Assembly: GCA_001784175.1 (NCBI GenBank)
Contig: MFPR01000040.1
Span: 44,955 to 108,954 of the forward strand
Source of the DNA: Candidatus Lindowbacteria bacterium RIFCSPLOWO2_12_FULL_62_27
GTDB taxonomy: Bacteria > Lindowbacteria > 2-12-FULL-62-27
Direction: 5' to 3'
Length of the DNA stretch: 64,000 bases
Below are positions 6,592 to 48,568 of this stretch, piece after piece. The notes below the pieces were generated by a model, which ran no database searches, was not told where the DNA came from, and worked only from the letters and a program-made list of their open reading frames with translations. Each line of letters opens with the position of its first letter. Positions within the stretch are counted from its first letter, which is position 1. Made by a program: the position numbers and the translations under genes.

Positions 6592-6626
6592 GGCGGTGCG
6601 ACGGGTGACAGGGGGGTTTCTCGGAC

Positions 6627-14543: not shown

Positions 14544-14561
14544 GGGACACAGTTGCGAAAC

Positions 14562-18407: not shown

Positions 18408-18507
18408 TGTTTGGATTTCCCGTCAGTCCTTGGGTGTGGAGATAGATCAATCGTTTCGATCGTTTCTGAACACAAGTTCAGAAAAATAAAGTAGGAGGTG
18501 ATTCCAG

Positions 18508-19341
18508 ATGAGAGTAGTTATTTGTTGTCTTATGCTTGTTGCAGTTTTATCCGTGACAGCGTTTGCGGTCGATGTATTCTACGACGATGTATTAATTTCA
18601 GGTTCAACAGGATTTAACGCACCTGGAGAAACTGCCACTTTGTACCTAGGAGATTTCAATAACAGAGTGAATGCTGTTTGGGGATCTGGTTTGCGTTTTT
18701 CCGCATACAATGCGGAAGACCTACTTGTGTTAAATGAAGTAACGGGCAATGTGGGTATCGGGACAGTCTCTCCACAACATAAAATTCATGTTTTCGATGA
18801 CACCAATCCCCGAATTGAGATCGAGGCCAAGTCGGGTATCGTCCCGCTCAGTTCCGAATTGAACCTTGTCACACAACAAGGGGACAGCCCCGCAAAATTT
18901 GTCAATCTCTTTGCAGACGAGCAAGGGAAATTCGGCATTTGGACCGGAGGGCCGGGTGGTGCAGGCTCCACAAAGCTGACTTTGACCTCACAGGGGGACC
19001 TAGATGTTACAGGAAAGATCAACAGCGGGAGTAAAGGCTTGGTCTACTCCACGACAACAGGTTTGAAGAAAATGGTGACTACATCCGTCAGCGTCAACAC
19101 AAGTATTTCAGGTGGCTCCTCGGGTGGCGCTCCTGCGACTGTGTCCTTTAATTTCTCTGAATCGTTTTCAGGAACACCTGTCGCTTGGGTTGGAGATATC
19201 ACTGCTGGATTACCAAGTTTTTTCATTTTCACTCTCAAAGATGTCACCAGTACCGGTGGAACGCTCTCTATATCGAATCCAACATCTAGCTCCGCAACGT
19301 GTAATGTGACCATAAGAATCGTGGCGTTGGGTTCAGAGTGA
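18508..19341 (+). CDS. secreted tail-fibre-like protein with a C-terminal H-type-lectin-like domain (low-GC gene)
   Basis: Shine-Dalgarno-like AGGAGG 8 nt upstream. Signal peptide MRVVICCLMLVAVLSVTAFA. Motif GNVGIGTVSPQHKIHV, typical of tail-fibre-like proteins. The C-terminus ..VSFNFSESFSGTPVAWVGDIT..IFTLKDVTSTGGTL..CNVTIRIVALG fits an H-type lectin pattern. GC content is clearly below the surrounding genes. Confidence 0.55.
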   Translation: MRVVICCLMLVAVLSVTAFAVDVFYDDVLISGSTGFNAPGETATLYLGDFNNRVNAVWGSGLRFSAYNAEDLLVLNEVTGNVGIGTVSPQHKIHVFDDTNPRIEIEAKSGIVPLSSELNLVTQQGDSPAKFVNLFADEQGKFGIWTGGPGGAGSTKLTLTSQGDLDVTGKINSGSKGLVYSTTTGLKKMVTTSVSVNTSISGGSSGGAPATVSFNFSESFSGTPVAWVGDITAGLPSFFIFTLKDVTSTGGTLSISNPTSSSATCNVTIRIVALGSE

Positions 19342-19393
19342 AGCATTCCACATATTATTGATAGCTGTTAGAGCGTTTGGTTTGCCTTAAATT

Positions 19394-19424
19394 ATCCCTC
19401 TCCCGTCCTATGCGGGAGAGGGAT
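19394..19424. repeat. GGGAGAGG-family hairpin (ATCCCTCTCCCG tcctatg CGGGAGAGGGAT), intergenic, terminator-like
   Basis: A 12-bp perfect stem between the lectin-like gene and paralog 2; followed by AAAAGGGG rather than a T-run. Confidence 0.7.
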
Positions 19425-19467
19425 AAAAGGGGAATGGATATGACAAGAAGGGAGGGACTTTATAGAT

Positions 19468-20001
19468 ATGGCGCCAAAAACTTGTGGTATTGGTGTAATT
19501 GTTTCGCTTCTGATCAGTATTCTCGGATTAGGAACCACCTTTGAGCAACCGAAATTCGAGATTGGCTTGGAAGGACAGTGGTTGTTGTCGGCAGGGGACA
19601 ATTACGAATGGAAGTTGCCCGAGTTTCATGCCGAGGGCTGGAAGACCACGCAGGTGCCTGCCGCGTGGGAGTCCCAAGGACTGACCGATTACAACGGGCA
19701 TGGCTGGTACCTGTACACCTTTGTCGTCCCCAAAGAGTGGGAGAAAACAGCCCGCGAGTTTATCCTCGACATGGGCCAGATTGACAACGAAGATGTCACG
19801 TATGTAAACGGCCAAGACGTCGGTTCTACCAGCGGCTGGAACGTACTCCGTTCCTACGGGATACCGAAACCCCTTGTGAAATTCGGAGAAAAAAACGTCA
19901 TCGTGGTCCGCATCTACGACCGCACAAGCGGCGGCATTCTTCGGGGTCCGATCAAACTCCGCAGCGGCGGCGTTGGCCGATTCGACGTCGAAGGCTATTA
20001 A
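19468..20001 (+). CDS. small secreted stand-alone jelly-roll domain protein, paralog 2 (lower GC than paralog 1)
   Basis: 177 aa, co-linear with the 17871..18407 product (..EWKLPEFHAEGWKTTQVPAAWESQGLTDYNGHGWYLYTFVVP..). Shine-Dalgarno-like AAGGGAGGG upstream. Confidence 0.7.
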   Translation: MAPKTCGIGVIVSLLISILGLGTTFEQPKFEIGLEGQWLLSAGDNYEWKLPEFHAEGWKTTQVPAAWESQGLTDYNGHGWYLYTFVVPKEWEKTAREFILDMGQIDNEDVTYVNGQDVGSTSGWNVLRSYGIPKPLVKFGEKNVIVVRIYDRTSGGILRGPIKLRSGGVGRFDVEGY

Positions 20002-26456: not shown

Positions 26457-27676
26457 GAAGGAGATTTTGGATTTTGGATTTTGGATTTTGGATTGTCGGG
26501 ATACTTCTGTGCTGGAGCCTCTCGGCCGTCGCCGCGCAGCCGCCCGCTGCGACGCTCCTGTTTGCGCCGCCTGGCGCCGGGAGCGTCGGTATGTCGGCCG
26601 CCGGCGCCGAGGACATCGGGTCGGCCCTCTGGCACAACCCGGCCGGACTTGTGCATCTGCGGTACCGCGAGATCGAGGCCGGGTTTGGCAGCAACTCGAA
26701 CGGATTCGACGCGCACGCCGGATATTTCGACCCGGGTAAACCCATTCTCGGTTTGCCGATGGCGTTCCGCTTCGACGCGCTGACCTCCAACGTCCTTCTC
26801 AGCGACACCAGCCCGGATCGGAAGTTCGGCGACGGCCATCTGATCGCCGTTTCCGCCGGCGCCGGTTTTTACGCCGCTTCGCGGTTGTCGCTCGGTGCGG
26901 CCACGCGGTTCTTCCATCTGAAAGCTCCGGCCGGAAACGGCGTTGGCGCCGTCGCGGATCTCGGCGCGATCTACCGCCCCGGCGAATTGATCCGATTCTC
27001 ATACGGCATCAAAAACCTTGGCTTCGTATCCAGCATTCCCGGTAGCCAGGGCGACATGCCCGTGACCCAGCTTTTGGGCGTTCACGTCAAATCCCCCGCG
27101 CGGGGCAACATCGCGATGGACGCCGTCCTGGGCTGGCCGGCCGACCTCAAGGGCTTCTGGAGTGTGGCCGGGACCTACCGGTTCACGGAGTCGTTGGGCA
27201 TGCGATTTCATCTGGCCGAGGCCAAAGACATCCCGGTCATCGACGGGCGCGGGATTGGATTCTTTCTAAACACATATTGGGGCAAGTTCGATCTGTCGTA
27301 TCAGTTGGCGGAGCTTGGAAATTTCCTCAGGTTCACCTGGATCCGCCGATCGAGCCGGCCCCCTGAAACCTACCCACCCCTCCTCCGGAGCCGGCCGCGT
27401 CCCCCCCCCGCCGCGGGCTCTATTATATATGGAGAGGCGGAAGGTGAACCTGCGAAGGAAAAGACCGGGTCGCCGGCCGGATCAGCGCCTCCGGCGCCGC
27501 CCGGGCGGATCAAGGATGCCGAAGGCACCCCGGCGGTGGCGACGCCGGTGGACGCGGAACCGCCGTCCACGGAGGAGTTTTTCCGTCCGGCCCCCAAGCG
27601 TCCTTCTGTGCCCGAAGGTCCGGCCGCCGACGCCGACGCCCCGGCGGCCGTCGCTGTCCCGGTGGACGAACGATGA
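26453..27676 (+). CDS. second PorV/PorQ-family-like outer-membrane protein with a Pro/Ala-rich low-complexity C-terminal tail
   Basis: ATGA overlap with the upstream gene. N-terminus MRRRFWILDFGFWIVGILLCWSLSAVAA (heptamer element plus signal peptide). ..GSVGMSAAGAEDIGSALWHNPAGL motif. The C-terminal 100 aa are P/A/E-rich and include an in-frame GSAPPAPP element. Confidence 0.5.
   Translation: MRRRFWILDFGFWIVGILLCWSLSAVAAQPPAATLLFAPPGAGSVGMSAAGAEDIGSALWHNPAGLVHLRYREIEAGFGSNSNGFDAHAGYFDPGKPILGLPMAFRFDALTSNVLLSDTSPDRKFGDGHLIAVSAGAGFYAASRLSLGAATRFFHLKAPAGNGVGAVADLGAIYRPGELIRFSYGIKNLGFVSSIPGSQGDMPVTQLLGVHVKSPARGNIAMDAVLGWPADLKGFWSVAGTYRFTESLGMRFHLAEAKDIPVIDGRGIGFFLNTYWGKFDLSYQLAELGNFLRFTWIRRSSRPPETYPPLLRSRPRPPPAAGSIIYGEAEGEPAKEKTGSPAGSAPPAPPGRIKDAEGTPAVATPVDAEPPSTEEFFRPAPKRPSVPEGPAADADAPAAVAVPVDER
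26463..26487. repeat. heptamer mini-element (GATTTTG)x3.5 at codons 4-12 of CDS 26453..27676 (RFWILDFGFWI)
   Basis: gattttggattttggattttggatt follows ATGAGAAGGA. Confidence 0.9.
27477..27504. repeat. partial copy of the second element family, in frame as ..GSAPPAPPG.. within the low-complexity tail of CDS 26453..27676
   Basis: ccggatcagcgcctccggcgccgcccgg. Confidence 0.6.
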
Positions 27677-27749: not shown

Positions 27750-28799
27750 ATGATCAAGAAGAAACTGCTCCAGAACGGGGCGTCCCGCAAGTCCAACATC
27801 TATGACGTGGCCGAGGAGGCCGGCGTGTCCATCGCGACCATTTCCCGCGCCATGAACAATCCCGCGATCGTCTTTCCCGAAACTCTCAAGCAGATCGAGA
27901 CGGCCATGAAAAAGCTCCGGTACCGGCCCAGCCCCGAGGCGAAATGCCTCGCGCAGCAGAAGAGCGACCAGATCGCCGTGTTCCTGTCGCCTCACGATGA
28001 GGTCCACTATGCCCTCGTCGTCATGAACTTTCTCGTCGGCATCATCTGGGGCGCCGAAAAGAACCGGCTTCGCATGACGGCGCATATGCTGTTCAAGACC
28101 GAGGAGGAAAACGCCGCCGTGGACGTGACGACTTCCCTGGAAGGCGCGATCATGATGGCGGACATGAAGCGCAGCGGGGCCTTGAGGGAACTCGAGCAAA
28201 ACAAAGTCCCGGTCGTCTATTTGAACTGCACCGACCATCCCAAAAAACACCGGATCACGGTGGACGACGCCGCCGGCGCCGGACTGGCGCTGGAGCATCT
28301 CATCCAGCTCGGCCACGAGCGTATCGCGTTTCTGACCGGCGAGATGACCACGATCAGCGGCCTCGCCCGCGCCCGTGGCTGCCAGGAGACTTTGAAAAAG
28401 CATGGCCTGCTCGAAGCGACGGAAAAGAACAGGTTTTTCCGAAACGCGCGGTTCGACCAGAAGATCGCCTACGCCGAAACCCATGACCTCCTCCGGCAAA
28501 CCCCGCGGCCCACCGCCATCTTCGCCGCCAGCGACTGGATGGCCCTCGGGGCCATCACCGCGATCCGCGAAAAAGGCCTGGCCGTGCCCCGCGACGTCTC
28601 CGTGGTTGGATACGACAACTCCATCCTCGCCTCCCAGGTCACGCCGCCGCTCACCACGGTCCACCAGCCGTTCGTGGAAATGGGCAAGGAAGCGGTGGCG
28701 GCCATCCTGAAGATCCGCGAGGAATCCGGCCGCGTCTATCACAAGACGCTGGAGCCGAGTCTCGTGATCCGGGAAACCACGGCGCCGCCGGCCAAATGA
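27750..28799 (+). CDS. LacI-family transcriptional regulator
   Basis: Shine-Dalgarno-like AAAGGAGG 9 nt upstream of ATG 27750. N-terminal helix-turn-helix NIYDVAEEAGVSIATISRAMN. Periplasmic-binding-protein-like effector domain. Confidence 0.85.
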   Translation: MIKKKLLQNGASRKSNIYDVAEEAGVSIATISRAMNNPAIVFPETLKQIETAMKKLRYRPSPEAKCLAQQKSDQIAVFLSPHDEVHYALVVMNFLVGIIWGAEKNRLRMTAHMLFKTEEENAAVDVTTSLEGAIMMADMKRSGALRELEQNKVPVVYLNCTDHPKKHRITVDDAAGAGLALEHLIQLGHERIAFLTGEMTTISGLARARGCQETLKKHGLLEATEKNRFFRNARFDQKIAYAETHDLLRQTPRPTAIFAASDWMALGAITAIREKGLAVPRDVSVVGYDNSILASQVTPPLTTVHQPFVEMGKEAVAAILKIREESGRVYHKTLEPSLVIRETTAPPAK

Positions 28800-28823: not shown

Positions 28824-30356
28824 ATGCGGCTCGTCAAGAAGGATCTCCTCGGGAAAATCCTCCTCACCACCAGGATCATTTCCAAAGATCAGCTCCGCGA
28901 GGCTTTGGAGCGCCAGCAGAAGTCGCCCCTCAAACTCGTCGGCGAAATCCTCATCGAACTCGGATACGCCACCCAGGCCGACGTGCTCACCGCCTACGCC
29001 CTTCAACACGGCATCCGGTATGTCAACCTCGACGACACCGACCTCCCTCATTCCTCCATCGCCGGCCGCTTGCCCGCCAAATTCGCCTGCAAGTACTGCA
29101 TCCTGCCGCTCAAGGAGGACGACGCGACATTCACCATCGCGTCCCACATGCCCAAATACGTCGACAAGACCATCGTCGACGATCTCGAATTGATCCTGGA
29201 CAAAAAAATCGAGCTGGTGATCTGCGGCAAAGACCAGCTCATCGCCAAAATATGCGAGTTCTACCGCATCGCACGCGAGGAATATGACCGGCTGCGGTCC
29301 ATCACCGACCGCGTGGCCATGGAGCTGCCGGACCTGGCGGAAGATCTGGCGCAGGAACCGTTCGACGGCGACCGCCTGGCGGTCGTCAAAAACAGCCCCA
29401 AGATGGCCGCGCTCTATGAAACGATTCTGAGAGTTGCCAAAAGCAACGCGGCCGTCCTGCTCCTCGGCGAAACCGGCACCGGCAAGGAGGTTTGCGCCAA
29501 GGTCATCCATCAGAACAGTCTGAGGAAGGACAAGCCGTTCATCAAAGTCAGTTGCGCCGCGCTGCCGGAGACGCTCCTCGAAAGCGAGATGTTCGGTTAC
29601 GAAAAAGGCGCGTTCACCGGCGCATACAGCCGCAAGCAGGGCCGGTTCGAGCTCGCCAGTGGCGGCACCCTCTTCCTCGACGAAATCGGCGAGATTACCA
29701 TGCCCGTCCAGATCAAGCTCCTGCGCGTCCTCCAGGACGGCGAGATCGAGAGGCTCGGCGGCGTCCACTCCATCAAAACCGACGTGCGGATCATCGCGGC
29801 GACGAACCGCAACCTCGAACAGGAAGTCAAGGCGGGCCGGTTCCGGCAGGACCTCTTTTACCGGCTGAACGTGGTCGCGTTCCAGATCCCGCCGCTGCGC
29901 GACCGCAAGGAGGACATCCCGTACCTGATCGAGCATTTCATCCAGAAGTTCAACCGGAAGAACGACCGGCACGTAAAGTACGTGTCGCCTAAGGTCACCG
30001 ACCTTTTGATGGAATACGACTGGCCGGGAAACATCCGGGAACTCGAAAATTGCATCGAACGCATGATCGTCACGTGCACCTCCGACAAAATCCTCGTCGA
30101 ACACATTCCGTTCCACTTGAAATCGCTCCAGATGCAGGTCGCCTACAGCGGGATTTCGGACGACACGGCCGCATCTCCAGCCGGGCCGGCGCCCGGCCAT
30201 GCTCCGTCTGCCGGTCCGGCAACATCGGCGGCGCTCTCCCGAGAACAGATCGAGGAAGCCCTGCGGAAAACCAGGTGGAACAAAGTCCGCGCGGCCAAAC
30301 TCCTGAACATCCACCGCAACACGCTGATGAAAAAAATCAAGGACCTCGGGTTGTAA
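28824..30356 (+). CDS. sigma-54-dependent transcriptional activator (enhancer-binding protein) with an N-terminal T2SSE_N/MshEN-like domain instead of a receiver domain
   Basis: N-terminal ..LTTRIISKDQLREALE..LVGEILIELGYATQADVLTAYALQHGIRYVNLDD.. is GspE-N/MshEN-like. AAA+ sigma-54 interaction domain (VLLLGETGTGKEV, GAFTGA, GGTLFLDEIGEI). C-terminal Fis-type helix-turn-helix LLNIHRNTLMKKIKDLG. Confidence 0.85.
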   Translation: MRLVKKDLLGKILLTTRIISKDQLREALERQQKSPLKLVGEILIELGYATQADVLTAYALQHGIRYVNLDDTDLPHSSIAGRLPAKFACKYCILPLKEDDATFTIASHMPKYVDKTIVDDLELILDKKIELVICGKDQLIAKICEFYRIAREEYDRLRSITDRVAMELPDLAEDLAQEPFDGDRLAVVKNSPKMAALYETILRVAKSNAAVLLLGETGTGKEVCAKVIHQNSLRKDKPFIKVSCAALPETLLESEMFGYEKGAFTGAYSRKQGRFELASGGTLFLDEIGEITMPVQIKLLRVLQDGEIERLGGVHSIKTDVRIIAATNRNLEQEVKAGRFRQDLFYRLNVVAFQIPPLRDRKEDIPYLIEHFIQKFNRKNDRHVKYVSPKVTDLLMEYDWPGNIRELENCIERMIVTCTSDKILVEHIPFHLKSLQMQVAYSGISDDTAASPAGPAPGHAPSAGPATSAALSREQIEEALRKTRWNKVRAAKLLNIHRNTLMKKIKDLGL

Positions 30357-30357
30357 T

Positions 30358-30400
30358 CGCCGGGCGGTGGAACCCTATTTCACATCCACCGTCATTTTTC
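30358..30400. terminator. possible bidirectional terminator between convergent genes (CGGTGGA-N13-TCCACCG followed by TCATTTTT)
   Basis: 7-bp stem. Overlaps the 3' end of the minus-strand gene. Confidence 0.35.
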
Positions 30401-30869
30401 GGAGGTCGAAGGTTGCGATCCGGCCCGTGATGATTTCCATGCCGACGAGTCCGACTTCGGCGTCGGTCAGACTCAGAAGCACAACGATCCGGCGGCCGGA
30501 AACTTGAAGTGTCCCTCGATATAAAATGTCCTGCACGACGCTGCCGTCCGCCAATTGATATTGGGTCCGGTTGAAAGGCTCCAACCGCGCGCGCCGGCCG
30601 ATCTTTCGCGGCAACACGAGACTGCCGTTGAATCCGGTGTCCAGGATCGCGTTGAATTGAATGCGCTCACCCCTCATTCCAAGAATGGACACGTCTTCGA
30701 GCATCGGTTCGAGATTGGCCGTGATCTGGCCTTTCAGGAATGTCACCTGAAGCGAAAGAACGGGGTATGGATCTTGAAGGCCGTCGGATACCCGACGCGG
30801 ATGAGGCGCACGTCGCTGCCGTTTTTCATCGGCGGGCAACTCCGGACAATGTCGGACCCGCAGAAACAC
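30375..30869 (-). CDS. retropepsin-like (clan AA) aspartic protease domain protein
   Basis: DTG-type motif ..NAILDTGFNGSLVLP.. and an overall size of about 120-160 aa. The true start is probably internal (Met56, about 30704). Convergent with the sigma-54 activator gene. Confidence 0.5.
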   Translation of the reverse strand: MFLRVRHCPELPADEKRQRRAPHPRRVSDGLQDPYPVLSLQVTFLKGQITANLEPMLEDVSILGMRGERIQFNAILDTGFNGSLVLPRKIGRRARLEPFNRTQYQLADGSVVQDILYRGTLQVSGRRIVVLLSLTDAEVGLVGMEIITGRIATFDLRKMTVDVK

Positions 30870-31077
30870 CGGCCGCTTTTTATATCCACCGCCACCAATA
30901 TCCCCTTGCGAAGCCTCCGGCCTTTGAAAAATTTCCGGGCGGCCAAAAGCGCATCCCTATTCCAAGCCGCCGGCGTTTTGGAACTCCGTACGGATCGTTT
31001 CATGACCTTATGCTATCCCCGGGTTGTCCGAAAGGCAAGCTCGCAAATGAGAAAACGGAAATGCATCGTCTCGCTCA

Positions 31078-31227
31078 GAACGTGTGAATAAATCCCTTAT
31101 CCACGAAGGAGCACGAAGGGGCACGAAGAAACATTTAGATAACATATTGAATATCTGGATTCCCTTCGTGTCAGCTTCGTGTCCCTTCGTGGATAAAAAG
31201 TGGTTTATTCAATTTTTTCACACGTTC
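31078..31227. repeat. 150-bp compound inverted repeat: outer arms GAACGTGTGAATAAA / TTTATTCA..TTCACACGTTC; inner arms each carry three direct CACGAAG(G) units (TCCACGAAGGAGCACGAAGGGGCACGAAG / CTTCGTGTCAGCTTCGTGTCCCTTCGTGGA)
   Basis: The arms are directly readable and about 85% complementary. It could be a six-half-site binding array, a MITE-like element or a structured RNA; the function is unknown. Confidence 0.8.
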
Positions 31228-31257
31228 TCACCGAACGGCGGAACTAAACAGCATAAT

Positions 31258-31275
31258 GCACATATAATTGTGCAT
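31258..31275. promoter_or_regulatory. NtrC-type enhancer-like dyad TGCACA-TATAAT-TGTGCA (perfect 6-bp arms)
   Basis: Resembles TGCACC-N5-GGTGCA upstream activating sequences of enhancer-binding proteins. It sits in the AT-rich intergenic region between the divergent genes 30375..30869 and 31495..34107. Confidence 0.4.
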
Positions 31276-31359
31276 ATAGCCTATATATCTGCCGTGAATA
31301 TGCAGTATGCACACATCATCAAGCGTGCTTTCACGATGGGCGCCCACTTTGGCGCATTC

Positions 31360-31375
31360 GAAACCTTAAGGTTTC
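31360..31375. promoter_or_regulatory. perfect 16-bp palindrome GAAACCTTAAGGTTTC
   Basis: Directly readable. Located between the NtrC-like dyad and the candidate sigma-54 promoter. Confidence 0.4.
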
Positions 31376-31424
31376 AAATGATTTGTGAAAATTCCACGTT
31401 TTAACAGTAAGCGCTTTCATCACC

Positions 31425-31440
31425 GGGCATACCCTTTGCA
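31425..31440 (+). promoter_or_regulatory. candidate sigma-54 (-24/-12) promoter GGGCAT-N5-TTGCA for CDS 31495..34107
   Basis: The GG..GC spacing equals the TGGCAC-N5-TTGCA consensus, with a perfect TTGCA -12 element. The predicted start of transcription falls at the cre-like operator. An NtrC-like dyad lies about 165 bp upstream. A sigma-54 activator gene is adjacent. Confidence 0.4.
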
Positions 31441-31448
31441 AGAGATGG

Positions 31449-31462
31449 AGTAAGCGCTTACA
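31449..31462. promoter_or_regulatory. cre-like operator AGTAAGCGCTTACA (perfect 12-bp palindrome core), about 33 nt upstream of ATG 31495
   Basis: Matches the LacI/CcpA-type consensus TGTAAGCGCTTACA at 13 of 14 positions. A half-site-like GTAAGCGCTTTCA at 31407-31420. Confidence 0.6.
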
Positions 31463-31494
31463 AGCGCCAAACAAAAATGGGGTGGAGGTCAGAC

Positions 31495-34107
31495 ATGAAA
31501 ACTGAGATTTTAGATTTTAGATTTTGGATTTTGGATTCCAATAAGGGCGGTTTGAGATGGGCTACCGCGATTCTCATCCTGCTGCTCTGCGCCGGCCTTC
31601 CTGAGGCTCAGGCCGCGCTCAGCAAATCATCGCCGACCGGCGAGGAGGTCTGGCGCATCAACTGCGGCGCCACCGCCGCCGATTACGCCGATCCGGCCGG
31701 GAACACATGGGTCAAGGACGAGGATTTCTACTCCATTTACCGCTGGGGCTACATCAACGGCAACACCGCCTCCACCACCTCCAACATCACCAACACCTCC
31801 ACGCCCGAAATTTACAAGTCCAGCCGCTGGGGCGGAACGAACCTGTCCTACAAGGTCGAAGTCCCCAACGGCACCTACCGCGTCCGGCTCATGTTTGCGG
31901 AGACGTACTGGAACCAGGCCGGCAAGCGCGTGTTCAACGTGGCCCTCGAAGGCAACACGCTGTGGTCCTTCGTCGACATCTGGGCCTGGGCCGGCAATGC
32001 GATGAACAAGGCGATGGACCTGACGGCCGACGTGACGGTGACGGACGGCGTCCTCGACGTGACGTTTCCCGTCGTTCAGATGGACAACGCCTGCATCAGC
32101 GGGATCGAGGTCAAGGTCCTCACGCTGGCCGACGACGCGTTCCTCGATTTCGTGCAGAAAAAGATGTTCTGGTTTTACTGGAACGAGGCCGACGTTCAGA
32201 CCGGCCTCGTCAAATGGGGCGAGAACAATTTCGCCCAGGGGTACGGCAACACCTCCAGCATCGCCACCGATGGGTTCGCCCTCTCCATCTATACGATCGC
32301 CGCCAGCCGCGGATGGATCACGCGCCAGCAGGCGTACGATCGCGTCATGAAAATGCTGAATACGTTTGAGACTGTCATCCAGAACGTGCATGGTTTCTGG
32401 TGGCATTTCGTCTACACCGCCACCGGCGCGCGCGAGGGCACAACCGAAATCTCGACCGTCGACTCCGCGCTCTTTATCATGGGCGCGCTCCAGGCCGGCG
32501 AGTTTTTCCGAAGCGACCATCCGGACGTCGCGTCCAAGGCGGACCTTCTGTACCGCCGCATGGAGTGGAGCTGGTTTCTGAACGTCAATGCCGGCGATCC
32601 GTATCTGAACCGGTTCGTCAACATGGGCTGGAAGCCCGAGTATCAGCCGGGATCGCCGCACGGCTACGTCATCGCGAGCGGCCGGCCCGAAGGCGGTTAT
32701 TTCGTGAACGACTGGTGGAACCGGTACAGCGAATCGGTCTTCGTGAACTTCCTCGCGCTCGGCTCGCCCACCTACTCGGCCGGTCCGGCGGCTTGGACGG
32801 ACATGGGCAAGCCGTGGGTCGACGATTTTGGCTATCACTACGTGAACGAGCCGCCGCTTTTCACGCACCAGTTTCATCATCTCTATTACGACATGCGAAA
32901 CCGGCACGACGGCAAGGTCGACTACGTCGACAACACCCGCAAGGCCACGCAGGTCAACCGCCTCACGTGCGAGAACGACAGCCGCTATGAGCCCAAACGC
33001 TGGGGGCTGTCGGGTTCCAACGGGCCGACGGGCTATCAGGCCTACGGCGCCGGCACGGGCGGGTTCCACGACGGCACGGTCGATCCGGCCGCGCCCGCCG
33101 CCACGATGAACATCACGCCCACGGAGTCGATCCAGGCCACGCGGTTCATGTTCTTCCAGTACAAGCATCACATCTGGGGCCAGTACGGGTTTTCGGACGC
33201 GTTCAACGTGAGCGCCGACTGGAAGGACTGGCTCTTCGACGGCCTCAGCGCCGGCGCGCTCGTCATTGGCATCGAAAATTACCGCACCGGCATGGTGAGA
33301 AACGAGTTCATGAAAAATCCATACCTTGCGACCGCCTACGCTCAGGCCGGCATCAAGACCTTCGGCCAGTCCGCGCTCTACAACGCATCGACCGGCAGTG
33401 ACGCGCCGAACGCGTTCGACAACAACATGACCACGCGCTGGGGCTCGGCCTTCGCCGACCCGCAGTGGCTCGAAGTCGACTACGGCGCCGGACGGACGTT
33501 CAACAAGGTCACGATCAACTGGGAGGCGGCCTACGGCAAGGACTACAAGATCCAGGCGTCGTGGGACGCGAACACGTGGTGGGACGTCGCGACCGTCGTG
33601 AACGGCAACGGCGCCACGGACATCCTGACCTTCCCGATGAACACCGCCCGATACTGGAGAATGTACGGCACGAAACGCGGCACGGCGTGGGGCTATTCGA
33701 TCTGGGAGATGAAATTCGAGAACACGGTGAATCTCGCTCTGAACAAGCCGGCCACGTCCTCATCCAACGAAAACTCGGGCGTCACGGCGCCGAAGGCCTT
33801 CGACGGCAGCTTCACGACGCGCTGGGCGTCACTGTGGAGCGACCCGCAGTGGGTCCGGGTCGACCTCGGCTCGAACCAGAACGTGAGCCGCGTGATCCTG
33901 CACTGGGAGTACGCGTACGGCAAGGACTACAAAATCCAGACCTCGACGGACAACATCAACTGGACGGACCGCTTCACGGCGGTCAACGGCGACGGCGGCG
34001 TCGATGAGTGCCCGTTCACGGCCGTGAGCGCCCGGTACATCCGCATGTACGGCACCGCGCGCGGCACCGGGTTCGGGTATTCGCTGTGGGAGATGCAGGT
34101 GCAGTGA
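31495..34107 (+). CDS. secreted glycoside hydrolase: malectin-like CBM, then a GH144-like (alpha/alpha)6 catalytic domain, then two C-terminal F5/8 type C domains
   Basis: GGAGG 7 nt upstream of ATG 31495. N-terminus MKTEILDFRFWILDSNKGG followed by a signal peptide. Malectin-like ..WRINCGATAADYADPAGNTW..YRVRLMFAETYWNQAGKRVFNVALEGN..ISGIEV. Catalytic motifs DDAFLDFVQKKMFWFYWNEADVQTGLVK and IENYRTGMV. Two discoidin repeats ending GYSLWEMQVQ. Confidence 0.8.
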   Translation: MKTEILDFRFWILDSNKGGLRWATAILILLLCAGLPEAQAALSKSSPTGEEVWRINCGATAADYADPAGNTWVKDEDFYSIYRWGYINGNTASTTSNITNTSTPEIYKSSRWGGTNLSYKVEVPNGTYRVRLMFAETYWNQAGKRVFNVALEGNTLWSFVDIWAWAGNAMNKAMDLTADVTVTDGVLDVTFPVVQMDNACISGIEVKVLTLADDAFLDFVQKKMFWFYWNEADVQTGLVKWGENNFAQGYGNTSSIATDGFALSIYTIAASRGWITRQQAYDRVMKMLNTFETVIQNVHGFWWHFVYTATGAREGTTEISTVDSALFIMGALQAGEFFRSDHPDVASKADLLYRRMEWSWFLNVNAGDPYLNRFVNMGWKPEYQPGSPHGYVIASGRPEGGYFVNDWWNRYSESVFVNFLALGSPTYSAGPAAWTDMGKPWVDDFGYHYVNEPPLFTHQFHHLYYDMRNRHDGKVDYVDNTRKATQVNRLTCENDSRYEPKRWGLSGSNGPTGYQAYGAGTGGFHDGTVDPAAPAATMNITPTESIQATRFMFFQYKHHIWGQYGFSDAFNVSADWKDWLFDGLSAGALVIGIENYRTGMVRNEFMKNPYLATAYAQAGIKTFGQSALYNASTGSDAPNAFDNNMTTRWGSAFADPQWLEVDYGAGRTFNKVTINWEAAYGKDYKIQASWDANTWWDVATVVNGNGATDILTFPMNTARYWRMYGTKRGTAWGYSIWEMKFENTVNLALNKPATSSSNENSGVTAPKAFDGSFTTRWASLWSDPQWVRVDLGSNQNVSRVILHWEYAYGKDYKIQTSTDNINWTDRFTAVNGDGGVDECPFTAVSARYIRMYGTARGTGFGYSLWEMQVQ
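31506..31537. repeat. heptamer mini-element (GATTTTR)x4.5 at codons 4-14 of CDS 31495..34107 (EILDFRFWILD)
   Basis: gattttagattttagattttggattttggatt follows ATGAAAACTGA. Confidence 0.9.
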
Positions 34108-35750
34108 AAAAACCTGAGATTTTAGATTTTAGATTTTCGATTTTTCTTCCATTCTGTCCAAAGTCGTCGAAGGAGTCGTTGGCCATAGTCTTACTGGCGT
34201 GCGCCGTTGTGATGTGCCCGGAGGCAACTTGGGCAACGCATCTGGGCACCTGCCATGACAGCAATCACGTGACATGTTTCTCGACGGCCCCCAGTCACAC
34301 TCAGGAATTCATCAGCATGGGCTGGCTTAGCTACCATGACATCGCGTTCGGATTGCTGATCAAACCGGGATGGAAACAGGGAATCCTGAGCGCATATAAT
34401 TGGAGTCCGCACGTTCCCAACCATATCACGGAGGTAACCAGTGTGGATCTGGTGCGATGGGATGTTTTCGGCGATTTTCCAGGCTATTATCGAGACGCGC
34501 TGGCTTCAGGAATCCCAGTTCCGATCGCATCGGGTGGGGGCACCGTAGGTTCCTTCTTGCCAACGCGCGGGGGAACATTTTATACGGGAACGAAGATAAA
34601 CATCTCCGCACGCTATGAGGGTTATTATCCATGGCTGGAGCCGCTGGGCGGATATAATTCAGACGGATCGGCCAACAAAGGTCCCATCGAGTTCACCAAT
34701 CCAGAGTGGGGCGTGGGACCCCAATTCGACGAATGGGGGTTTGAGGTGAGACCATGGTGCATCGCATTGCAGATGCGGCTTGAGAATTTGACCCCCGGGG
34801 ACCTGAATCCGCCGGAAGAGGTTCAGCCAAAGAACGCCGATCCGGGCGATCCCACGAATGAGAAATCGAAGGTCCGATCCAGGTTGTCCGGAACATCTGT
34901 GCCGTCCTTGCTGGCGGGGGGTGCATACGTGGGGTGGTATATCGAAGGAGAAGGCGGGGGACATGAGGAAGCGCATCACGCCACACCAAGACCGGTCGGC
35001 ACGTTTGAGAATGGCCAGTGGCTGCATTTCGAACACGTGCCGACGGGGCAGACCGTCGATCTCACTCGGACATATACCGCTGGCGAATTCGGGGGCGACG
35101 AGCGAATCAAGGTTGTGGTCAGCGACAAGCCGTTGACTGCTTCGAGCCTTCCGAGATCGACGCTTGCGGAACAGGCGTCGGCCCGGGAGGTATTGAAGCA
35201 GGAGGGTATCGCGGCGGCGGGAAACGACGAAGGCGTCCGCGGCGACGGCACCGGCTGCGCGTTTGGGACCGACGTCTACGTTTTCTGGCCGGGCCTTCAA
35301 GAAATCTCGGATGGGGCGGATTACGAAAAAACGGGACAAACCCCTTCACACCCTCGGAACCACCATGGAACCTCAGATTTGATTATGGCTATTGAGAAAG
35401 TAGCCTTTAAATATAGAGAAACCACGAAGAACAGCCCCGGTCTTGATGAAGCCATTATCCGTGTCAATGACATGAGTCTTGAGAATGGCGGAGCGTTTGA
35501 TATTTGCGCCACGTGGGATATACACGATAATAGTTGTTTGTCTGATCCCAAACCGCCGACGGCTCACAATCGTCACAGAACGGGAAAGAGTGTGGATATC
35601 AGTAAATTCCATAAAGTGATATCTACTGGGTCCGTGGTCCTCCTCGGGAATAATACCTTTCTGGTACAACAATTATTTACAAATGAAAATCTAAATATTT
35701 CTTCACAATTATTTGCGCAATTCGGAAGACTGCATTTTGAACTGCAATGA
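34104..35750 (+). CDS. secreted protein with a C-terminal LAS/M15-like zinc-peptidase-like domain (possible peptidoglycan hydrolase); the C-terminal domain is low-GC
   Basis: The GTG at 34104 overlaps the upstream stop (GTGA); a TTG at about 34179 is an alternative start. N-terminus KKPEILDFRFSIF.. (heptamer element) followed by a signal peptide. C-terminal motif ..AHNRHRTGKSVDIS.. (H-x-T-G-x-x-V-D as in VanY/M15). GC content drops sharply from about 35330. Confidence 0.55.
   Translation: MKKPEILDFRFSIFLPFCPKSSKESLAIVLLACAVVMCPEATWATHLGTCHDSNHVTCFSTAPSHTQEFISMGWLSYHDIAFGLLIKPGWKQGILSAYNWSPHVPNHITEVTSVDLVRWDVFGDFPGYYRDALASGIPVPIASGGGTVGSFLPTRGGTFYTGTKINISARYEGYYPWLEPLGGYNSDGSANKGPIEFTNPEWGVGPQFDEWGFEVRPWCIALQMRLENLTPGDLNPPEEVQPKNADPGDPTNEKSKVRSRLSGTSVPSLLAGGAYVGWYIEGEGGGHEEAHHATPRPVGTFENGQWLHFEHVPTGQTVDLTRTYTAGEFGGDERIKVVVSDKPLTASSLPRSTLAEQASAREVLKQEGIAAAGNDEGVRGDGTGCAFGTDVYVFWPGLQEISDGADYEKTGQTPSHPRNHHGTSDLIMAIEKVAFKYRETTKNSPGLDEAIIRVNDMSLENGGAFDICATWDIHDNSCLSDPKPPTAHNRHRTGKSVDISKFHKVISTGSVVLLGNNTFLVQQLFTNENLNISSQLFAQFGRLHFELQ
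34117..34144. repeat. degenerate heptamer mini-element at codons 5-14 of CDS 34104..35750 (EILDFRFSIF)
   Basis: gattttagattttagattttcgattttt follows GTGAAAAAACCTGA. Confidence 0.85.
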
Positions 35751-36835
35751 AAAAAACAAACGTGGTGTTATCTCTGATTCCATTTTCGGTGGTCATCGTT
35801 ACCAACTGTTGGGCATTTGAACCAAGAGAAAATTTGCCGGTTCTCAGACAGATACGATTATCGTCCACGATTGCTAAGATTGCCGGGTCGATAGATTATT
35901 ATGAATATGACTACTCATTATACAATTCCAACACGAACAGTGGAAGTGTCATGTCAATTGTTATCGATCTGACGGAGCGGGCGAAGAGAATACAACAATT
36001 CAATAGTTCTGTCGGATTTGTGGACAATCGTATGGCGGGGTTTGGAAAGGAGCATGGATATCCCCCAATTGTGGCGGTGAGCGATCTAAAAATTCCAGAC
36101 CGCTGGTTTGGCTTTTTAGGATCGGTTGCCGTCAACTGGGTTGTGCATGGAAGTCAGGATGATCATCCATGGTTGGTAGTCCCCGGAAAATCATTGCAAG
36201 GTCTTGGATTTAAGTCACCGGCGGTGCCGGGTATTACAACATTCGTGGTAACACCTGTCTTGGATCTTTCCAAGTTCTATCCGGACATTCATGATGTTAC
36301 CGGTGGATTGGAAGAAGAAAACGCTTTAATGCGACAGATAAATCAAGATCGTGATGCCATTAAATTTACCGGCAGGACATTGGGACCTGTGGCTCCACCG
36401 GTTGATTTATCAGAACTATGCGATACATTTATCCTCGACCTGATCGGCCAAGTGCGAGAGGCGGAGGTATTGGGCTGGATCAAGCACGACCTGCGGAAAG
36501 ACCGGGACGACGATGACGACCACGGCAAGCGGACGGTCGACGAGAAAGGCAAGAAGAAAGGCCGCGACAAAGACGATGACGAAGACGACGACAACGGCGA
36601 TGACGACGATTCCGACCTCGACGAGAAGAACAGGGGCCTGCCGGGTGTGGCGAAGTCGATCATCAAGAAGCTGACGAAGGTGCGTCAGGAGTGTCTGCGT
36701 GAGAAGTTCGGGATCGCCCGTGAGAAACTGCGGGCGCTGATCAAGCAGGTGAGCGCGCAGCGAGGGAAGCACTTGACCGATGAGGCCTATTATCTGATCC
36801 GATTCAACGCGGAATTTCTGCTTGAAAAAATATAA
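35747..36835 (+). CDS. hypothetical periplasmic protein with an extreme K/R/D/E-rich low-complexity C-terminal region; low-GC; coupled to the upstream gene (ATGA)
   Basis: Signal peptide MKKTNVVLSLIPFSVVIVTNCWA. ..RDDDDDHGKRTVDEKGKKKGRDKDDDEDDDNGDDDDSDLDEKNRG.. tract. No catalytic motifs. Confidence 0.55.
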   Translation: MKKTNVVLSLIPFSVVIVTNCWAFEPRENLPVLRQIRLSSTIAKIAGSIDYYEYDYSLYNSNTNSGSVMSIVIDLTERAKRIQQFNSSVGFVDNRMAGFGKEHGYPPIVAVSDLKIPDRWFGFLGSVAVNWVVHGSQDDHPWLVVPGKSLQGLGFKSPAVPGITTFVVTPVLDLSKFYPDIHDVTGGLEEENALMRQINQDRDAIKFTGRTLGPVAPPVDLSELCDTFILDLIGQVREAEVLGWIKHDLRKDRDDDDDHGKRTVDEKGKKKGRDKDDDEDDDNGDDDDSDLDEKNRGLPGVAKSIIKKLTKVRQECLREKFGIAREKLRALIKQVSAQRGKHLTDEAYYLIRFNAEFLLEKI

Positions 36836-44433: not shown

Positions 44434-44534
44434 GGAGATCATCACCCGCGAAAATTCTGCATGTGGTAACAATCGCAATAACAGGTAGTTAAAGGCTTTT
44501 CGTTTTGGCGGCCTTGACTTTGTGTGCTACATGG

Positions 44535-44548
44535 TGTAAACGCTTACA
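44535..44548. promoter_or_regulatory. cre-like operator TGTAAACGCTTACA overlapping a putative -10 region, 119 nt upstream of ATG 44667; TTGACT -35-like box at 44511-44516
   Basis: 13 of 14 matches to TGTAAGCGCTTACA. Confidence 0.55.
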
Positions 44549-44666
44549 TGAGGGTCGGGAACGTGTCGGTCAAAATCGAGAGGTCGGGTCTGACAACTTT
44601 TGAAATTGAATAGATCGGGTTGGGACGCTGTCTTTTAGAAACGACAAAAAGAGATTAAAGGAGATT

Positions 44667-48410: not shown

Positions 48411-48462
48411 ATCCGCGGATGCGTCACTGCCGGCGTGGAGAGACGAAAAAGACGAAAAGGGG

Positions 48463-48523: not shown

Positions 48524-48568
48524 CCCCATATGCGGCCCCCGTATGCGGCCCCGTATGCCCCGGCCCGT

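What the first reader, a model, noticed from the sequence alone, without database searches (positions are those of the whole stretch)
30870..31494. AT-rich 600-bp regulatory hub: 150-bp compound inverted repeat, NtrC-like dyad, candidate sigma-54 promoter and cre-like operator next to an MshEN-domain sigma-54 activator
This is the only long non-coding, AT-rich stretch in the window, and it is densely palindromic.
- A 150-bp inverted repeat whose arms each carry three CACGAAG direct repeats (31078-31227).
- TGCACA-TATAAT-TGTGCA (31258-31275), which resembles enhancer-binding-protein upstream activating sequences.
- GAAACCTTAAGGTTTC (31360-31375).
- GGGCAT-N5-TTGCA with the exact sigma-54 -24/-12 spacing (31425-31440).
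- A cre-like operator exactly at the predicted transcription start (31449-31462).
- The adjacent gene 28824..30356 encodes a sigma-54 activator whose sensor is a T2SSE_N/MshEN-like domain. MshEN domains are known c-di-GMP binders.
Proposed circuit: the glycoside hydrolase gene at 31495 is activated through sigma-54 by an unusual MshEN-type enhancer-binding protein, and repressed at the transcription start by a LacI-type protein.
Basis: partly seen in the sequence, partly recalled or inferred. Interest (0 to 1): 0.7.

Follow-up and report, generated by a model that had tools for sequence, protein, structure and literature searches.

The report
Transposon relic beside a sigma-54 sugar switch
The 150-bp "compound inverted repeat" is a small mobile element, one of a hairpin repeat family found in many bacterial phyla, that landed just upstream of a probable sigma-54 promoter controlled by an unusual activator and a LacI-type repressor.

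Summary
The region is two separate things.

1. **A mobile element (31078-31227).** This is a 150-bp miniature inverted-repeat transposable element (MITE).
   - It has perfect 11-bp terminal repeats, GAACGTGTGAA, and a 3-bp target duplication, TCA/TCA.
   - A second copy, 97% identical, sits elsewhere in reverse orientation with unrelated flanks and its own duplication, TCC/TCC.
   - Its arms each carry 3 x CACGAAG spaced about 10 nt apart (10-11 nt in the right arm). The same arm type occurs in at least 119 loci from about ten phyla, usually 7-30 nt after a stop codon.
   - The orthologous locus L129 lacks it.

2. **The regulatory module (31257-31462).**
   - The -24/-12 element (GGGCAT-N5-TTGCA) and the upstream ATGCACA-N6-TGTGCAT dyad align with TGGAAC-N5-TTGCA and ATGCACAAATAATTGCACA in L129.
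   - Two paralogous MshEN-type activators also sit next to the best sigma-54-like site in their loci.
   - There are two LacI-type operators, not one. They bracket the promoter and recur near other glycosidase genes.

The activator's N-terminus is a full MshEN domain. It keeps the hydrophobic, Gly and Gln ligand positions but lacks both Arg residues, so c-di-GMP binding is open.

Verdict: the circuit is largely supported. The inverted repeat is not part of it.

The parts
27750..28799 (+). LacI-family regulator gene, directly upstream of the activator gene
   Evidence: Pfam LacI, Peripla_BP_1, Peripla_BP_3 and Peripla_BP_4. Called as a 349-aa gene in all assemblies. The LacI-activator gene pair is conserved in L128 and L133.
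28824..30356 (+). Sigma-54 enhancer-binding protein with an N-terminal MshEN domain, a GAFTGA loop and a C-terminal HTH_8
   Evidence: Sigma54_activat E=2e-71; MshEN 45.7 bits against a cut-off of 23.1. GAFTGA is visible in the translation. The N-terminus matches PilB, PilF and MshE structures.
30375..30746 (-). Small ORF, weakly retropepsin-like, convergent with the activator gene
   Evidence: GC by codon position is 0.60/0.38/0.70, which is coding-like. Asp_protease_2 E=6e-4. Called in all assemblies. Absent from L129.
31075..31077 (.). Left copy of the 3-bp target-site duplication (TCA)
   Evidence: Alignment with the second copy in L159 marks where homology ends. Window flanks are TCA/TCA; L159 flanks are TCC/TCC.
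31078..31227 (.). 150-bp MITE: 11-bp perfect terminal inverted repeats (GAACGTGTGAA / TTCACACGTTC), AT-rich subterminal segments, and two arms of three CACGAAG units around a 35-nt loop
   Evidence: A second copy is 97.4% identical over 156 nt, in reverse orientation with unrelated flanks.
31102..31128 (+). Left arm: CACGAAG x3 at a 10-nt period
31164..31191 (-). Right arm: CTTCGTG x3 (period 11 then 10 nt), the complement of the left arm
31228..31230 (.). Right copy of the target-site duplication (TCA)
31257..31276 (.). Dyad ATGCACA-TATAAT-TGTGCAT, the candidate upstream activating sequence, centred about 185 nt before the predicted transcription start
   Evidence: It aligns with ATGCACAAATAATTGCACA in L129. 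TGCA-rich dyads also lie upstream of the sigma-54-like site in L130.
31298..31313 (.). Second TGCA-rich element (ATATGCAGTATGCACA), a partial inverted partner of 31269-31284
   Evidence: I5, D2. Not aligned in L129.
31360..31375 (.). Perfect 16-bp palindrome GAAACCTTAAGGTTTC, function unknown
   Evidence: No counterpart in L129.
31406..31419 (.). LacI-type operator O1 (AGTAAGCGCTTTCA), immediately upstream of the -24 element
   Evidence: (D5, I12).
31425..31440 (+). Candidate sigma-54 promoter GGGCATACCCTTTGCA (GG at 31426-27, GC at 31438-39)
   Evidence: 9 of 12 consensus positions with exact spacing. It aligns column for column with TGGAACGCCATTTGCA (11 of 12) in L129.
31449..31462 (.). LacI-type operator O2 (AGTAAGCGCTTACA), overlapping the predicted transcription start, 43 bp from O1
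31505..31537 (+). Array of the heptamer GATTTTR (4.7 copies), a second dispersed repeat. It lies in the 5' leader, or in the extended N-terminus, of the glycosidase gene
   Evidence: Absent from the L129 ortholog.
31495..34107 (+). Secreted glycoside hydrolase with malectin, PF10091 'glucoamylase' (which I recall as the GH144 endo-beta-1,2-glucanase family; not tested here) and 2 x F5/8 type C domains. An alternative start is TTG 31549
   Evidence: The ortholog in L129 lies directly downstream of the orthologous activator gene.

Best explanation
The region is a composite of two unrelated things.

**(a) 31078-31227: a non-autonomous transposable element (MITE).**
- It inserted at a TCA site about 30 bp upstream of the regulatory DNA of the glycosidase gene.
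- Its arms belong to a hairpin-repeat family found in many phyla. Each arm has three CACGAAG heptamers spaced one helical turn apart, and the two arms always face each other in the order CACGAAG...CTTCGTG.
- Inferred: the heptamers are the binding array of the mobilising protein, which is unknown. The element has no demonstrated role in regulating the glycosidase gene. At most it acts as a hairpin insulator or terminator.

**(b) 31257-31462: the real control region.**
- It contains a sigma-54 (-24/-12) promoter. The transcription start is inferred at about 31451.
- Inferred: the adjacent MshEN-domain enhancer-binding protein activates it from the ATGCACA-N6-TGTGCAT dyad about 185 bp upstream.
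- Inferred: the adjacent LacI-family protein represses it through two 14-bp operators at about -39 and +4. These bracket the promoter, 43 bp (about four helical turns) apart.
- Speculative: the MshEN domain is the signal input, possibly c-di-GMP.

**What is shown:** sequence anatomy, copy number, target duplications, conservation in relatives and domain content.
**What is inferred:** which protein binds which site, the transcription start and the ligand.
For: **MITE**
- Perfect 11-bp terminal repeats and a long hairpin.
- The second copy in L159 is 97.4% identical over 156 nt, inverted, with unrelated flanks. Homology ends exactly at 3-bp direct repeats: TCA/TCA here and TCC/TCC there.
- A third locus carries the left end only.
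- The L159 copy lies about 2 nt after the stop codon of a real gene (GC3 0.81).

**Family**
- The triple-CACGAAG pattern has at least 119 hits in one-genome-per-species contigs. My own estimate of the chance expectation is about 1.
- Orientation is 82 to 9 in favour of CACGAAG...CTTCGTG. The modal arm has 3 units. The period is 10 nt in 420 of 561 intervals.
- Context: 35 tandem, 19 convergent and 4 divergent gene pairs, usually 7-30 nt after a stop codon.
- Two copies in one Calditrichota contig share the loop sequence.
- Presence or absence differs between relatives at one orthologous site.

**Module**
- The L129 ortholog has only 265 nt between the activator gene and the glycosidase gene and carries no MITE. 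It has the aligned dyad and the aligned -24/-12 element.
- In L129 (11 of 12) and L130 (10 of 12) the top-scoring sigma-54-like site in the locus lies beside the activator gene. L131 has only a weaker 9-of-12 site there.
- GAFTGA is intact.
- The operator palindrome occurs 9 times against 0.9 expected. By my reading 7 of these lie outside ORFs, near glycosidase genes. A LacI gene is adjacent.
Against: - No autonomous parent element or transposase was found. No protein family recurs next to the elements.
- The ISAzo13 copy in L046 has its own, different ends.
- The window copy sits in a divergent intergenic region, which is the rare context for the family.
- As a sequence, the window's -24/-12 match (9 of 12) is not enriched over chance. 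Only one true ortholog was available for comparison.
- Distant GH homologs use TTGACA-type promoters, as do the other operator-bearing promoters in this window.
- L129 has no LacI gene next to the activator gene, and its operator-like site is not at the aligned position.
- rpoN was not located.
- Both RLG motifs of the MshEN domain read LLG and LVG.
Confidence: 0.7

Rival explanations
1. The 150-bp inverted repeat is a locus-specific regulatory site: an array of six phased binding sites for the activator or another regulator of the glycosidase gene.
For: Six heptamers phased at about one helical turn look like a protein-binding array. The repeat lies only 30 bp from the candidate activating dyad.
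Against: The same block occurs at an unrelated locus with its own target duplication. The same arm type lies next to unrelated housekeeping genes in many phyla. The orthologous control region works without it.
Confidence: 0.07
2. The glycosidase gene has an ordinary sigma-70-type promoter repressed by LacI. The GG-N10-GC match is a coincidence, and the neighbouring activator controls something else.
For: Matches of this quality are common. The other operator sites in the window accompany TTGACA-type promoters, and distant homologs have TTGACA/TATAAT promoters. A weak TTGTGA (31385) lies upstream of O1.
Against: The consensus scan finds no sigma-70-like promoter on the + strand in 30300-31700. 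The -24/-12 element and the dyad are the conserved blocks in the alignment with L129, where the match is 11 of 12. The activator-then-glycosidase gene order is conserved.
Confidence: 0.2
3. The element has been co-opted. The hairpin works as a two-way transcription terminator or insulator, isolating the sigma-54 promoter from transcription of the divergent small ORF or from read-through of the regulator operon. This does not exclude a MITE origin.
For: The family sits 7-30 nt after stop codons and is rare between divergent genes. Outer flanks are A-rich upstream, and therefore T-rich downstream. The window copy has a T6 run in its right subterminal segment. The hairpin is very stable. In one orthologous trio the heptamers are more conserved than the spacers and loop.
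Against: There is no consistent U-tract directly after the stem. Unit variants are mostly one-sided, with no compensatory maintenance (83 against 8). Arms decay in other orthologous pairs. The stop-codon niche could equally reflect where the element prefers to insert.
Confidence: 0.3
4. The CACGAAG arrays are not transposase sites. They are binding arrays for a conserved host protein such as a nucleoid or replication factor; the outer unit TTATCCACG resembles a DnaA box. The window MITE merely carries one such array.
For: The same heptamer occurs in about ten phyla although loops and spacers differ. The outer-unit consensus is T-T/C-A-T-C-CACG. For most members the palindrome ends only about 6 nt outside the first unit.
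Against: The DnaA-box resemblance rests on my memory of the consensus and on one unit only. Copies decay by CpG-type mutation (CACAAAG is the commonest variant) without compensation. Presence or absence differs between relatives. Tandem satellite forms exist.
Confidence: 0.15

Closest known systems
Bacterial MITEs such as Correia/NEMIS elements of Neisseria, RUP and ERIC (from my own knowledge of these families)
   Same: About 150 bp, non-coding, with terminal inverted repeats, a short target-site duplication, multiple dispersed intergenic copies and a long hairpin transcript. They can sit next to promoters without belonging to the original regulon.
   Different: Each arm carries three helically phased heptamers (CACGAAG). 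That arm type is shared across about ten phyla while loops differ. No parent insertion sequence is known. Insertion lies strikingly close to stop codons.
REP/BIME (REPIN) elements mobilised by RAYT transposases
   Same: Inverted doublets that form hairpins, concentrated at the 3' ends of genes between tandem or convergent genes, with many copies per genome.
   Different: No GTAG-type head and no associated RAYT gene was seen. The units are phased heptamer arrays rather than one imperfect palindrome. The window copy has classical terminal repeats plus a target duplication, which REPs lack.
NtrC-type sigma-54 promoters with upstream activating dyads (glnAp2 paradigm)
   Same: GG-N10-GC promoter. 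A TGCAC-type dyad lies 100-200 bp upstream. The activator has an AAA+ domain with GAFTGA and a Fis-type HTH, and is encoded next door.
   Different: The -24 element is weak (GGGCAT). The dyad spacing is TGCACA-N6-TGTGCA. The sensor is an MshEN domain rather than a receiver, GAF or PAS domain. The target is a secreted glycosidase.
c-di-GMP-responsive enhancer-binding proteins FleQ and VpsR, and MshEN receptors (MshE, PilB, PilF; PMC5013675)
   Same: It combines a sigma-54 AAA+ activator with a domain family known to bind c-di-GMP at high affinity.
   Different: FleQ binds c-di-GMP in its AAA+ domain, not through MshEN (PMC5013675). No paper in the searched library links MshEN with an enhancer-binding protein as one polypeptide. 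The Arg of both RLG motifs is missing here.
LacI/GalR-family operators (including CcpA cre sites)
   Same: A 14-bp palindrome with a central CG (TGTAAGCGCTTACT). It matches the cre consensus as I recall it, and it sits at or next to the promoter of a sugar-utilisation gene.
   Different: The likely binder is the locally encoded LacI paralog, not CcpA/HPr. Two operators bracket a sigma-54 promoter instead of overlapping a sigma-70 promoter.

Membership tests
MITE (miniature inverted-repeat transposable element) | Short and non-coding | tested here: met
   150 bp. No ORF of its own, and the overlapping + strand ORF is not coding-like.
MITE (miniature inverted-repeat transposable element) | Terminal inverted repeats | tested here: met
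   GAACGTGTGAA / TTCACACGTTC match 11 of 11, and the arms pair further inward.
MITE (miniature inverted-repeat transposable element) | Target-site duplication that differs between copies | tested here: met
   TCA/TCA in the window and TCC/TCC in L159.
MITE (miniature inverted-repeat transposable element) | Several copies at unrelated loci | tested here: met
   A full copy in L159 (97.4%) and a partial copy in L157, L158 and L160. Only three loci were found, under a strict search pattern.
MITE (miniature inverted-repeat transposable element) | A cognate autonomous element with the same ends | tested here: inconclusive
   None was found among 160 loci. The ISAzo13 copy in L046 has different ends.
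REP/BIME (REPIN) | 20-40 nt imperfect palindrome with a conserved GTAG-type head, linked to a RAYT gene | tested here: not met
   The arms are heptamer arrays. No GTAG head is apparent in the arm sequences printed, and this was not searched for formally. No recurring neighbour gene was found. A genome-wide RAYT search was not possible.
Sigma-54 (-24/-12) promoter | GG and GC separated by exactly 10 nt, in a TGGCACG-N4-TTGCW context | tested here: met
   GGGCATACCCTTTGCA matches 9 of 12 positions with exact spacing. As a sequence alone it is not above chance.
Sigma-54 (-24/-12) promoter | Conserved at the same position in orthologous loci | tested here: met
   L129 has TGGAACGCCATTTGCA (11 of 12), aligned and about 55 nt before the ATG. 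Only one ortholog was available.
Sigma-54 (-24/-12) promoter | A cognate enhancer-binding protein with an intact GAFTGA loop | tested here: met
   (the GAFTGA-type loop is kept across the family; two members read GSYTGA/GSFTGA).
Sigma-54 (-24/-12) promoter | rpoN present in the genome, and the transcription start about 12 nt after the GC | not testable with these tools
   Only 64 kb plus flanks of the genome are held, and there are no transcript data.
MshEN c-di-GMP receptor domain | Homology to the whole MshEN domain (N and C subdomains) | tested here: met
   Pfam PF05157 at 45.7 bits. PilB 5tsg E=6e-13 over residues 7-149; MshE 5htl E=3e-4.
MshEN c-di-GMP receptor domain | Two tandem 24-residue motifs RLGxx(L/V/I)(L/V/I)xxG(L/V/I)(L/V/I)xxxxLxxxLxxQ (PMC5013675) | tested here: inconclusive
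   The motifs are LLGKILLTTRIISKDQLREALERQ and LVGEILIELGYATQADVLTAYALQ. Gly, the hydrophobic positions and Gln are kept, and they are invariant or nearly so in 14 family members. Position 1 is Leu in both, which fails even the relaxed [RKPN] rule. Position 10 of motif 1 is Arg. The spacer is 6 residues, not 5. The paper reports a change of fivefold or less for Arg9 substitutions.
MshEN c-di-GMP receptor domain | Measured c-di-GMP binding | not testable with these tools
   Needs ITC or DRaCALA on residues 1-160.
LacI-family operator | A 14-bp palindrome with a central CG, repeated in front of genes of one pathway, with a LacI gene nearby | tested here: met
   G[TA]AAGCGCTT[AT]C occurs 9 times against 0.9 expected. 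By my reading 7 sites lie outside ORFs, in a beta-glucan CAZyme island. The LacI gene is at 27750-28799. Two of the nine may instead reflect K-A-L codons at N-termini.
CcpA cre site | Bound by CcpA-HPr(Ser-P) in a catabolite-repression regulon | not tested
   There is only a sequence resemblance. The organism appears to be a Candidatus Lindowbacteria MAG, and no CcpA or HPr was examined.

The most novel reading that the evidence does not exclude
The CACGAAG-array hairpins form an undescribed superfamily of non-autonomous elements spanning about ten phyla. Their six helically phased heptamers would be the docking array of a still-unknown conserved protein, and the elements would home to the first nucleotides after stop codons. 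Separately, the MshEN-type activator would be a second-messenger-gated sigma-54 activator that couples c-di-GMP, or a related ligand, to beta-glucan degradation.
Probability: 0.3. Interest if true: 0.8.

Novelty: new variant of a known kind. Interest (0 to 1): 0.6.

Why it matters
**For annotation.** It shows how a mobile hairpin can pass for a regulatory hub. It also separates that hairpin from a real dual-control switch: a sigma-54 activator plus a LacI repressor bracketing the promoter.

**For biology.** Two leads are worth following.
- A hairpin-repeat family has the same phased heptamers in Acidobacteriota, Chloroflexota, Planctomycetota, Verrucomicrobiota/Kiritimatiellota, Bacteroidota relatives, Desulfobacterota and others. 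It has no Rfam family and no recognisable transposase. This implies either an unknown mobilising protein with very conserved DNA specificity, or a conserved host factor.
- A small family of about 13 protein clusters (besides the query) fuses an MshEN domain to a sigma-54 AAA+ activator. If it binds c-di-GMP, this would be a new way to couple that messenger to sigma-54 transcription, here of a secreted glycanase in a candidate phylum.

Tried and rejected
- **Known RNA family.** Rfam gave no gathering-level hit in the window or in 18 element-bearing loci. Only generic miRNA-hairpin noise appeared at the E-value threshold.
- **Structured RNA maintained by compensation.** Unit variants are mostly one-sided, 83 against 8. 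Rejected.
- **Locus-linked gene.** Clustering 2332 ORFs from 119 loci gave only housekeeping families.
- **ISAzo13 as parent.** The L046 transposase lies between two arrays but has its own ends and a TAAG duplication. Rejected.
- **PIN-toxin locus between the arrays in L045.** No transposase there.
- **DnaA-box and parS resemblances.** Only partial and from memory. Not pursued.
- **Sequencing-adapter or assembly artefact.** Rejected. The window locus is identical or nearly so (one mismatch in L002) in 8 independent assemblies, and the elements occur in chromosome-level MAG assemblies and at orthologous sites.
- **Metagenome search with the GH protein.** Found nothing.
- **More distant GH homologs (L135-L137).** They have sigma-70-type promoters, so they did not help the sigma-54 test.
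- **Literature searches by sequence string.** Only primer noise.
- **Sigma-54-like site downstream of the L128 activator.** The spacing is wrong.
- **Polymorphism or an empty site among same-species assemblies.** None; all carry the element.
Full report
**Setting**

The window has about 62% GC and is a carbohydrate-enzyme island.
- It holds GH94, four PF10091 genes (which I take to be GH144-like; the GH numbering is from memory), GH2, GH5 and a GH15-like gene.
- The same contig occurs in several groundwater-type metagenome assemblies.
- A paralog in the window is named by NCBI as a Candidatus Lindowbacteria protein.
- Gene order around the finding:
  - LacI-family regulator (27750-28799, +)
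  - MshEN-domain sigma-54 activator (28824-30356, +)
  - small coding-like ORF (30375-30746, -)
  - about 750 nt without a called gene
  - secreted malectin/PF10091/discoidin glycosidase (31495-34107, +)

**Observation**

- The inverted repeat is far beyond chance. CACGAAG-N3-4-CACGAAG matches 4 times against 0.01 expected. The RNA fold is -78 kcal/mol, z = -9.6.
- A second LacI-type site was missed: AGTAAGCGCTTTCA at 31406-31419, 43 bp from the one at 31449-31462.
- The statement that this is the only AT-rich non-coding stretch is wrong.
- The sigma-54-like hexadecamer is not unusual as a sequence.

**The inverted repeat is a mobile element**

A metagenome scan for its terminal and subterminal sequence found a second full copy in L159.
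- It is 97.4% identical over 156 nt, lies in the opposite orientation and has unrelated flanks.
- In the alignment, homology starts at GAACGTGTGAA and ends at TTCACACGTTC.
- The three bases outside are a direct repeat in each case: TCA/TCA in the window (31075-77 and 31228-30) and TCC/TCC in L159.
- So 31078-31227 has perfect 11-bp terminal inverted repeats, a target-site duplication that differs between copies, no coding capacity and at least two or three dispersed copies. A left-end fragment lies in L157, L158 and L160. That is the definition of a MITE.
- The L159 copy sits about 2 nt beyond the stop codon of a real gene.
- The orthologous locus L129 has an activator 68% identical and a glycosidase 67% identical. 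Only 265 nt separate the two genes there, with no inverted repeat and no small ORF.
- All eight assemblies of the window's own species carry the element, identical or nearly so (one mismatch in L002).

**The arms belong to a much wider family**

My own estimate of the chance expectation is about one.
- By record title, the hits come from these groups:
  - Acidobacteriota
  - Chloroflexota
  - Planctomycetota
  - Verrucomicrobiota/Kiritimatiellota
  - Bacteroidales, Ignavibacteria and Calditrichota
  - Desulfobacterota and Myxococcota
  - some Proteobacteria
  - Auribacterota
- MAGs labelled Heliomicrobium share orthologous loci with Acidobacteria contigs, so that label is doubtful.
- Nineteen viral contigs also match.
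- In these loci there are 297 arrays. The modal arm has 3 units, and the period is 10 nt in 420 of 561 intervals.
- The order CACGAAG-array then CTTCGTG-array outnumbers the reverse order 82 to 9. Loops are 6-150 nt.
- The arm consensus is A-rich, then T-T/C-A-T-C-CACGAAG-gCA-CACGAAG-rrn-CACGAAG.
- Spacers of the two arms of one element are 54% alike against 34% in shuffles.
- Of 58 elements with ORFs on both sides, 35 lie between tandem genes, 19 between convergent genes and 4 between divergent genes. They usually start 7-30 nt after a stop codon.
- Two copies in one Calditrichota contig share the loop, in opposite orientations.
- At one orthologous site, L009 has the element where L072 has a different hairpin.
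- Orthologous copies show gain or loss of single units and arm decay. In one trio the heptamers are better kept than the spacers and loop.
- Variant units are mostly one-sided (83 against 8), and the commonest is the CpG-decay form CACAAAG.
- Tandem satellite forms exist.
- No Rfam family matches. No neighbouring protein recurs. An ISAzo13 copy lying between two arrays has its own ends.
- I therefore read the family as MITE- or REP-like hairpin repeats whose mobilising protein is unknown. Their niche at the 3' ends of genes may reflect insertion preference, terminator-like function, or both.

**The real control region**

Aligning 31231-31500 with the L129 intergenic region gives two conserved blocks.
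- ATGCACATATAATTGTGCA aligns with ATGCACAAATAATTGCACA.
- GGGCATACCCTTTGCA aligns column for column with TGGAACGCCATTTGCA. The latter matches 11 of 12 consensus positions and is the only site of that quality in 17 kb of L129.
- In both loci the element ends about 55 nt before the ATG.

Paralogous MshEN activators give further support.
- In L130 the only site scoring 10 of 12 lies in the divergent intergenic region next to the activator gene, downstream of TGCA-rich dyads.
- L131 has a weaker 9-of-12 site in the same position.
- The activator has an intact GAFTGA loop and a Fis-type HTH.

Together this makes a sigma-54 promoter the best reading. The start is inferred near 31451, with the dyad near -185 as the activating site. 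rpoN and the transcript 5' end remain untested.

**LacI control**

- G[TA]AAGCGCTT[AT]C occurs 9 times in the window against 0.9 expected.
- Seven sites are non-coding and lie at or beside promoters of glycosidase genes. Elsewhere these are TTGACA-type promoters.
- Two sites fall on K-A-L codons at N-termini and may be coincidental.
- At this locus O1 (about -39) and O2 (about +4) bracket the -24/-12 element, 43 bp apart. That suits cooperative repression.
- The LacI gene precedes the activator gene here. In L128 and L133 the two genes overlap.
- A distant homolog locus, L137, also pairs a LacI gene with an operator-like palindrome.

**The MshEN question**

- Residues 7-150 align with the whole MshEN domain of PilB, PilF and MshE.
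- Against the published 24-residue motifs (PMC5013675), the Gly, hydrophobic and Gln positions are present. They are invariant or nearly so across 14 family members.
- The leading Arg is Leu in both motifs, Gly10 of motif 1 is Arg, and the spacer is one residue longer.
- The paper reports changes of fivefold or less for Arg9 substitutions, so binding is neither shown nor excluded.
- No paper in the searched library describes an MshEN-sigma-54 fusion. Thirteen protein clusters with this architecture, besides the query's own, were found.

**Verdict**

The 150-bp inverted repeat is a transposon relic, not a regulatory component. GAAACCTTAAGGTTTC remains unexplained.

Approximate confidence:

| Claim | Confidence |
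|---|---|
| 31078-31227 is a MITE | 0.9 |
| LacI-type operators | 0.8 |
| Sigma-54 promoter | 0.7 |
| The dyad is the activator's binding site | 0.55 |
| c-di-GMP is the ligand | 0.3 |

Noticed in passing
window 9531-9562, 12915-12946, 13904-13936, 15981-16021, 26463-26494, 31505-31537, 34117-34144, 47509-47541: A second dispersed repeat: a ~33-nt array of the heptamer GATTTTG (GAGATTTTGGATTTTGG...). Three + strand copies begin 4-10 nt after stop codons. Four - strand copies lie in frame inside long ORFs and read ESKIQNPKSKIS or EIQNPKSKIQN. One lies in the leader or N-terminus of the glycosidase gene and is absent from its ortholog.
   Followed up: partly
L026 1761-2001, L049 7315-7414, L131/L132 2985-3012: Similar ATTTTG-type heptamer arrays occur in Planctomycetota MAGs, as inverted pairs next to or around CACGAAG hairpins. 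They also occur on another contig from the window's metagenome.
   Followed up: no
window 59294-59372: A degenerate relative of the CACGAAG element: three ATTCGTG units with a decayed left arm (CCACGAAT...). It lies just upstream of a TTGACA promoter and a LacI-type operator.
   Followed up: partly
window 6535-6596, 44512-44550, 59406-59450, 59543-59560, 59660-59800: Other LacI-type operators accompany TTGACA-type promoters. The one at about 6570-6591 is a 22-bp perfect palindrome, GGGACGAAAGCGCTTTCGTCCC. This suggests one LacI regulon over the CAZyme island.
   Followed up: partly
L130 7770-8000 and L131 7800-8000: Paralogous MshEN activators are divergently paired with PLD-domain genes. The intergenic regions carry sigma-54-like sites (TGGAACACTAGTTGCA; CGGTACTCTAATTGCA), and L130 also has TGCA-rich dyads.
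   Followed up: partly
L128 2045-11601: The closest LacI-activator pair in an NCBI MAG (GCA_023249255.1) is followed by an HTH-PTS_EIIA_2 gene and a Mrp/complex-I-like operon instead of a glycosidase. No correctly spaced -24/-12 site lies directly downstream.
   Followed up: partly
L009 1374-1460 versus L072 190-290: The same intergenic site between orthologous genes holds a CACGAAG hairpin in one genome and a different hairpin, built of GACAAGCTG/CAGCTTGTC units, in the other. Post-stop-codon sites appear to be hot spots for several hairpin families.
   Followed up: no
L059 2650-3550; L018 1-95; L110 3415-3590: Satellite-like tandem arrays of whole arms, including CGCGGAG and CACGGAG unit variants, or of the 10-mer CACGAAGGAG alone.
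   Followed up: no
L011, L099, L103, L106, L125 (element loops): Inside the CACGAAG arms of several Acidobacteria-type copies lies a second nested pair of inverted arrays built of ACAGGAT-type heptamers.
   Followed up: no
window 1912-1989, 2706-2752, 14505-14551: Another repeated palindromic motif, CCCTCTCCC...GGGAGAGGGTTGGGGTGAGGG, occurs at three places.
   Followed up: no
window 18501-19500 and 35501-36500: Two further low-GC stretches (0.45-0.47 and 0.40-0.48). The second is lower than the region of the finding and overlaps ORFs without Pfam hits (34008-35750, 35747-36835).
   Followed up: no
window 48459-48527: An inverted repeat with 34-nt arms, 1 nt apart (GGGGCCGGGTATTGACTAAAGTGACTTATTTCAG / ...), downstream of the 44667-48329 gene. 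Not examined.
   Followed up: no
L160 1313-4915: The partial copy of the window's element lies in a region with PIN-domain toxin genes and a fragment that looks like a group II intron reverse transcriptase (YADD motif; read from the ORF translations, no domain search run), so a mobile-element-rich neighbourhood.
   Followed up: no
L057, L061, L067 and other loci titled Heliomicrobium or Heliobacteriaceae: MAGs carrying these Firmicutes names share orthologous loci at 80-85% nucleotide identity with contigs labelled Acidobacteria or Blastocatellia. The taxonomic labels are doubtful.
   Followed up: partly
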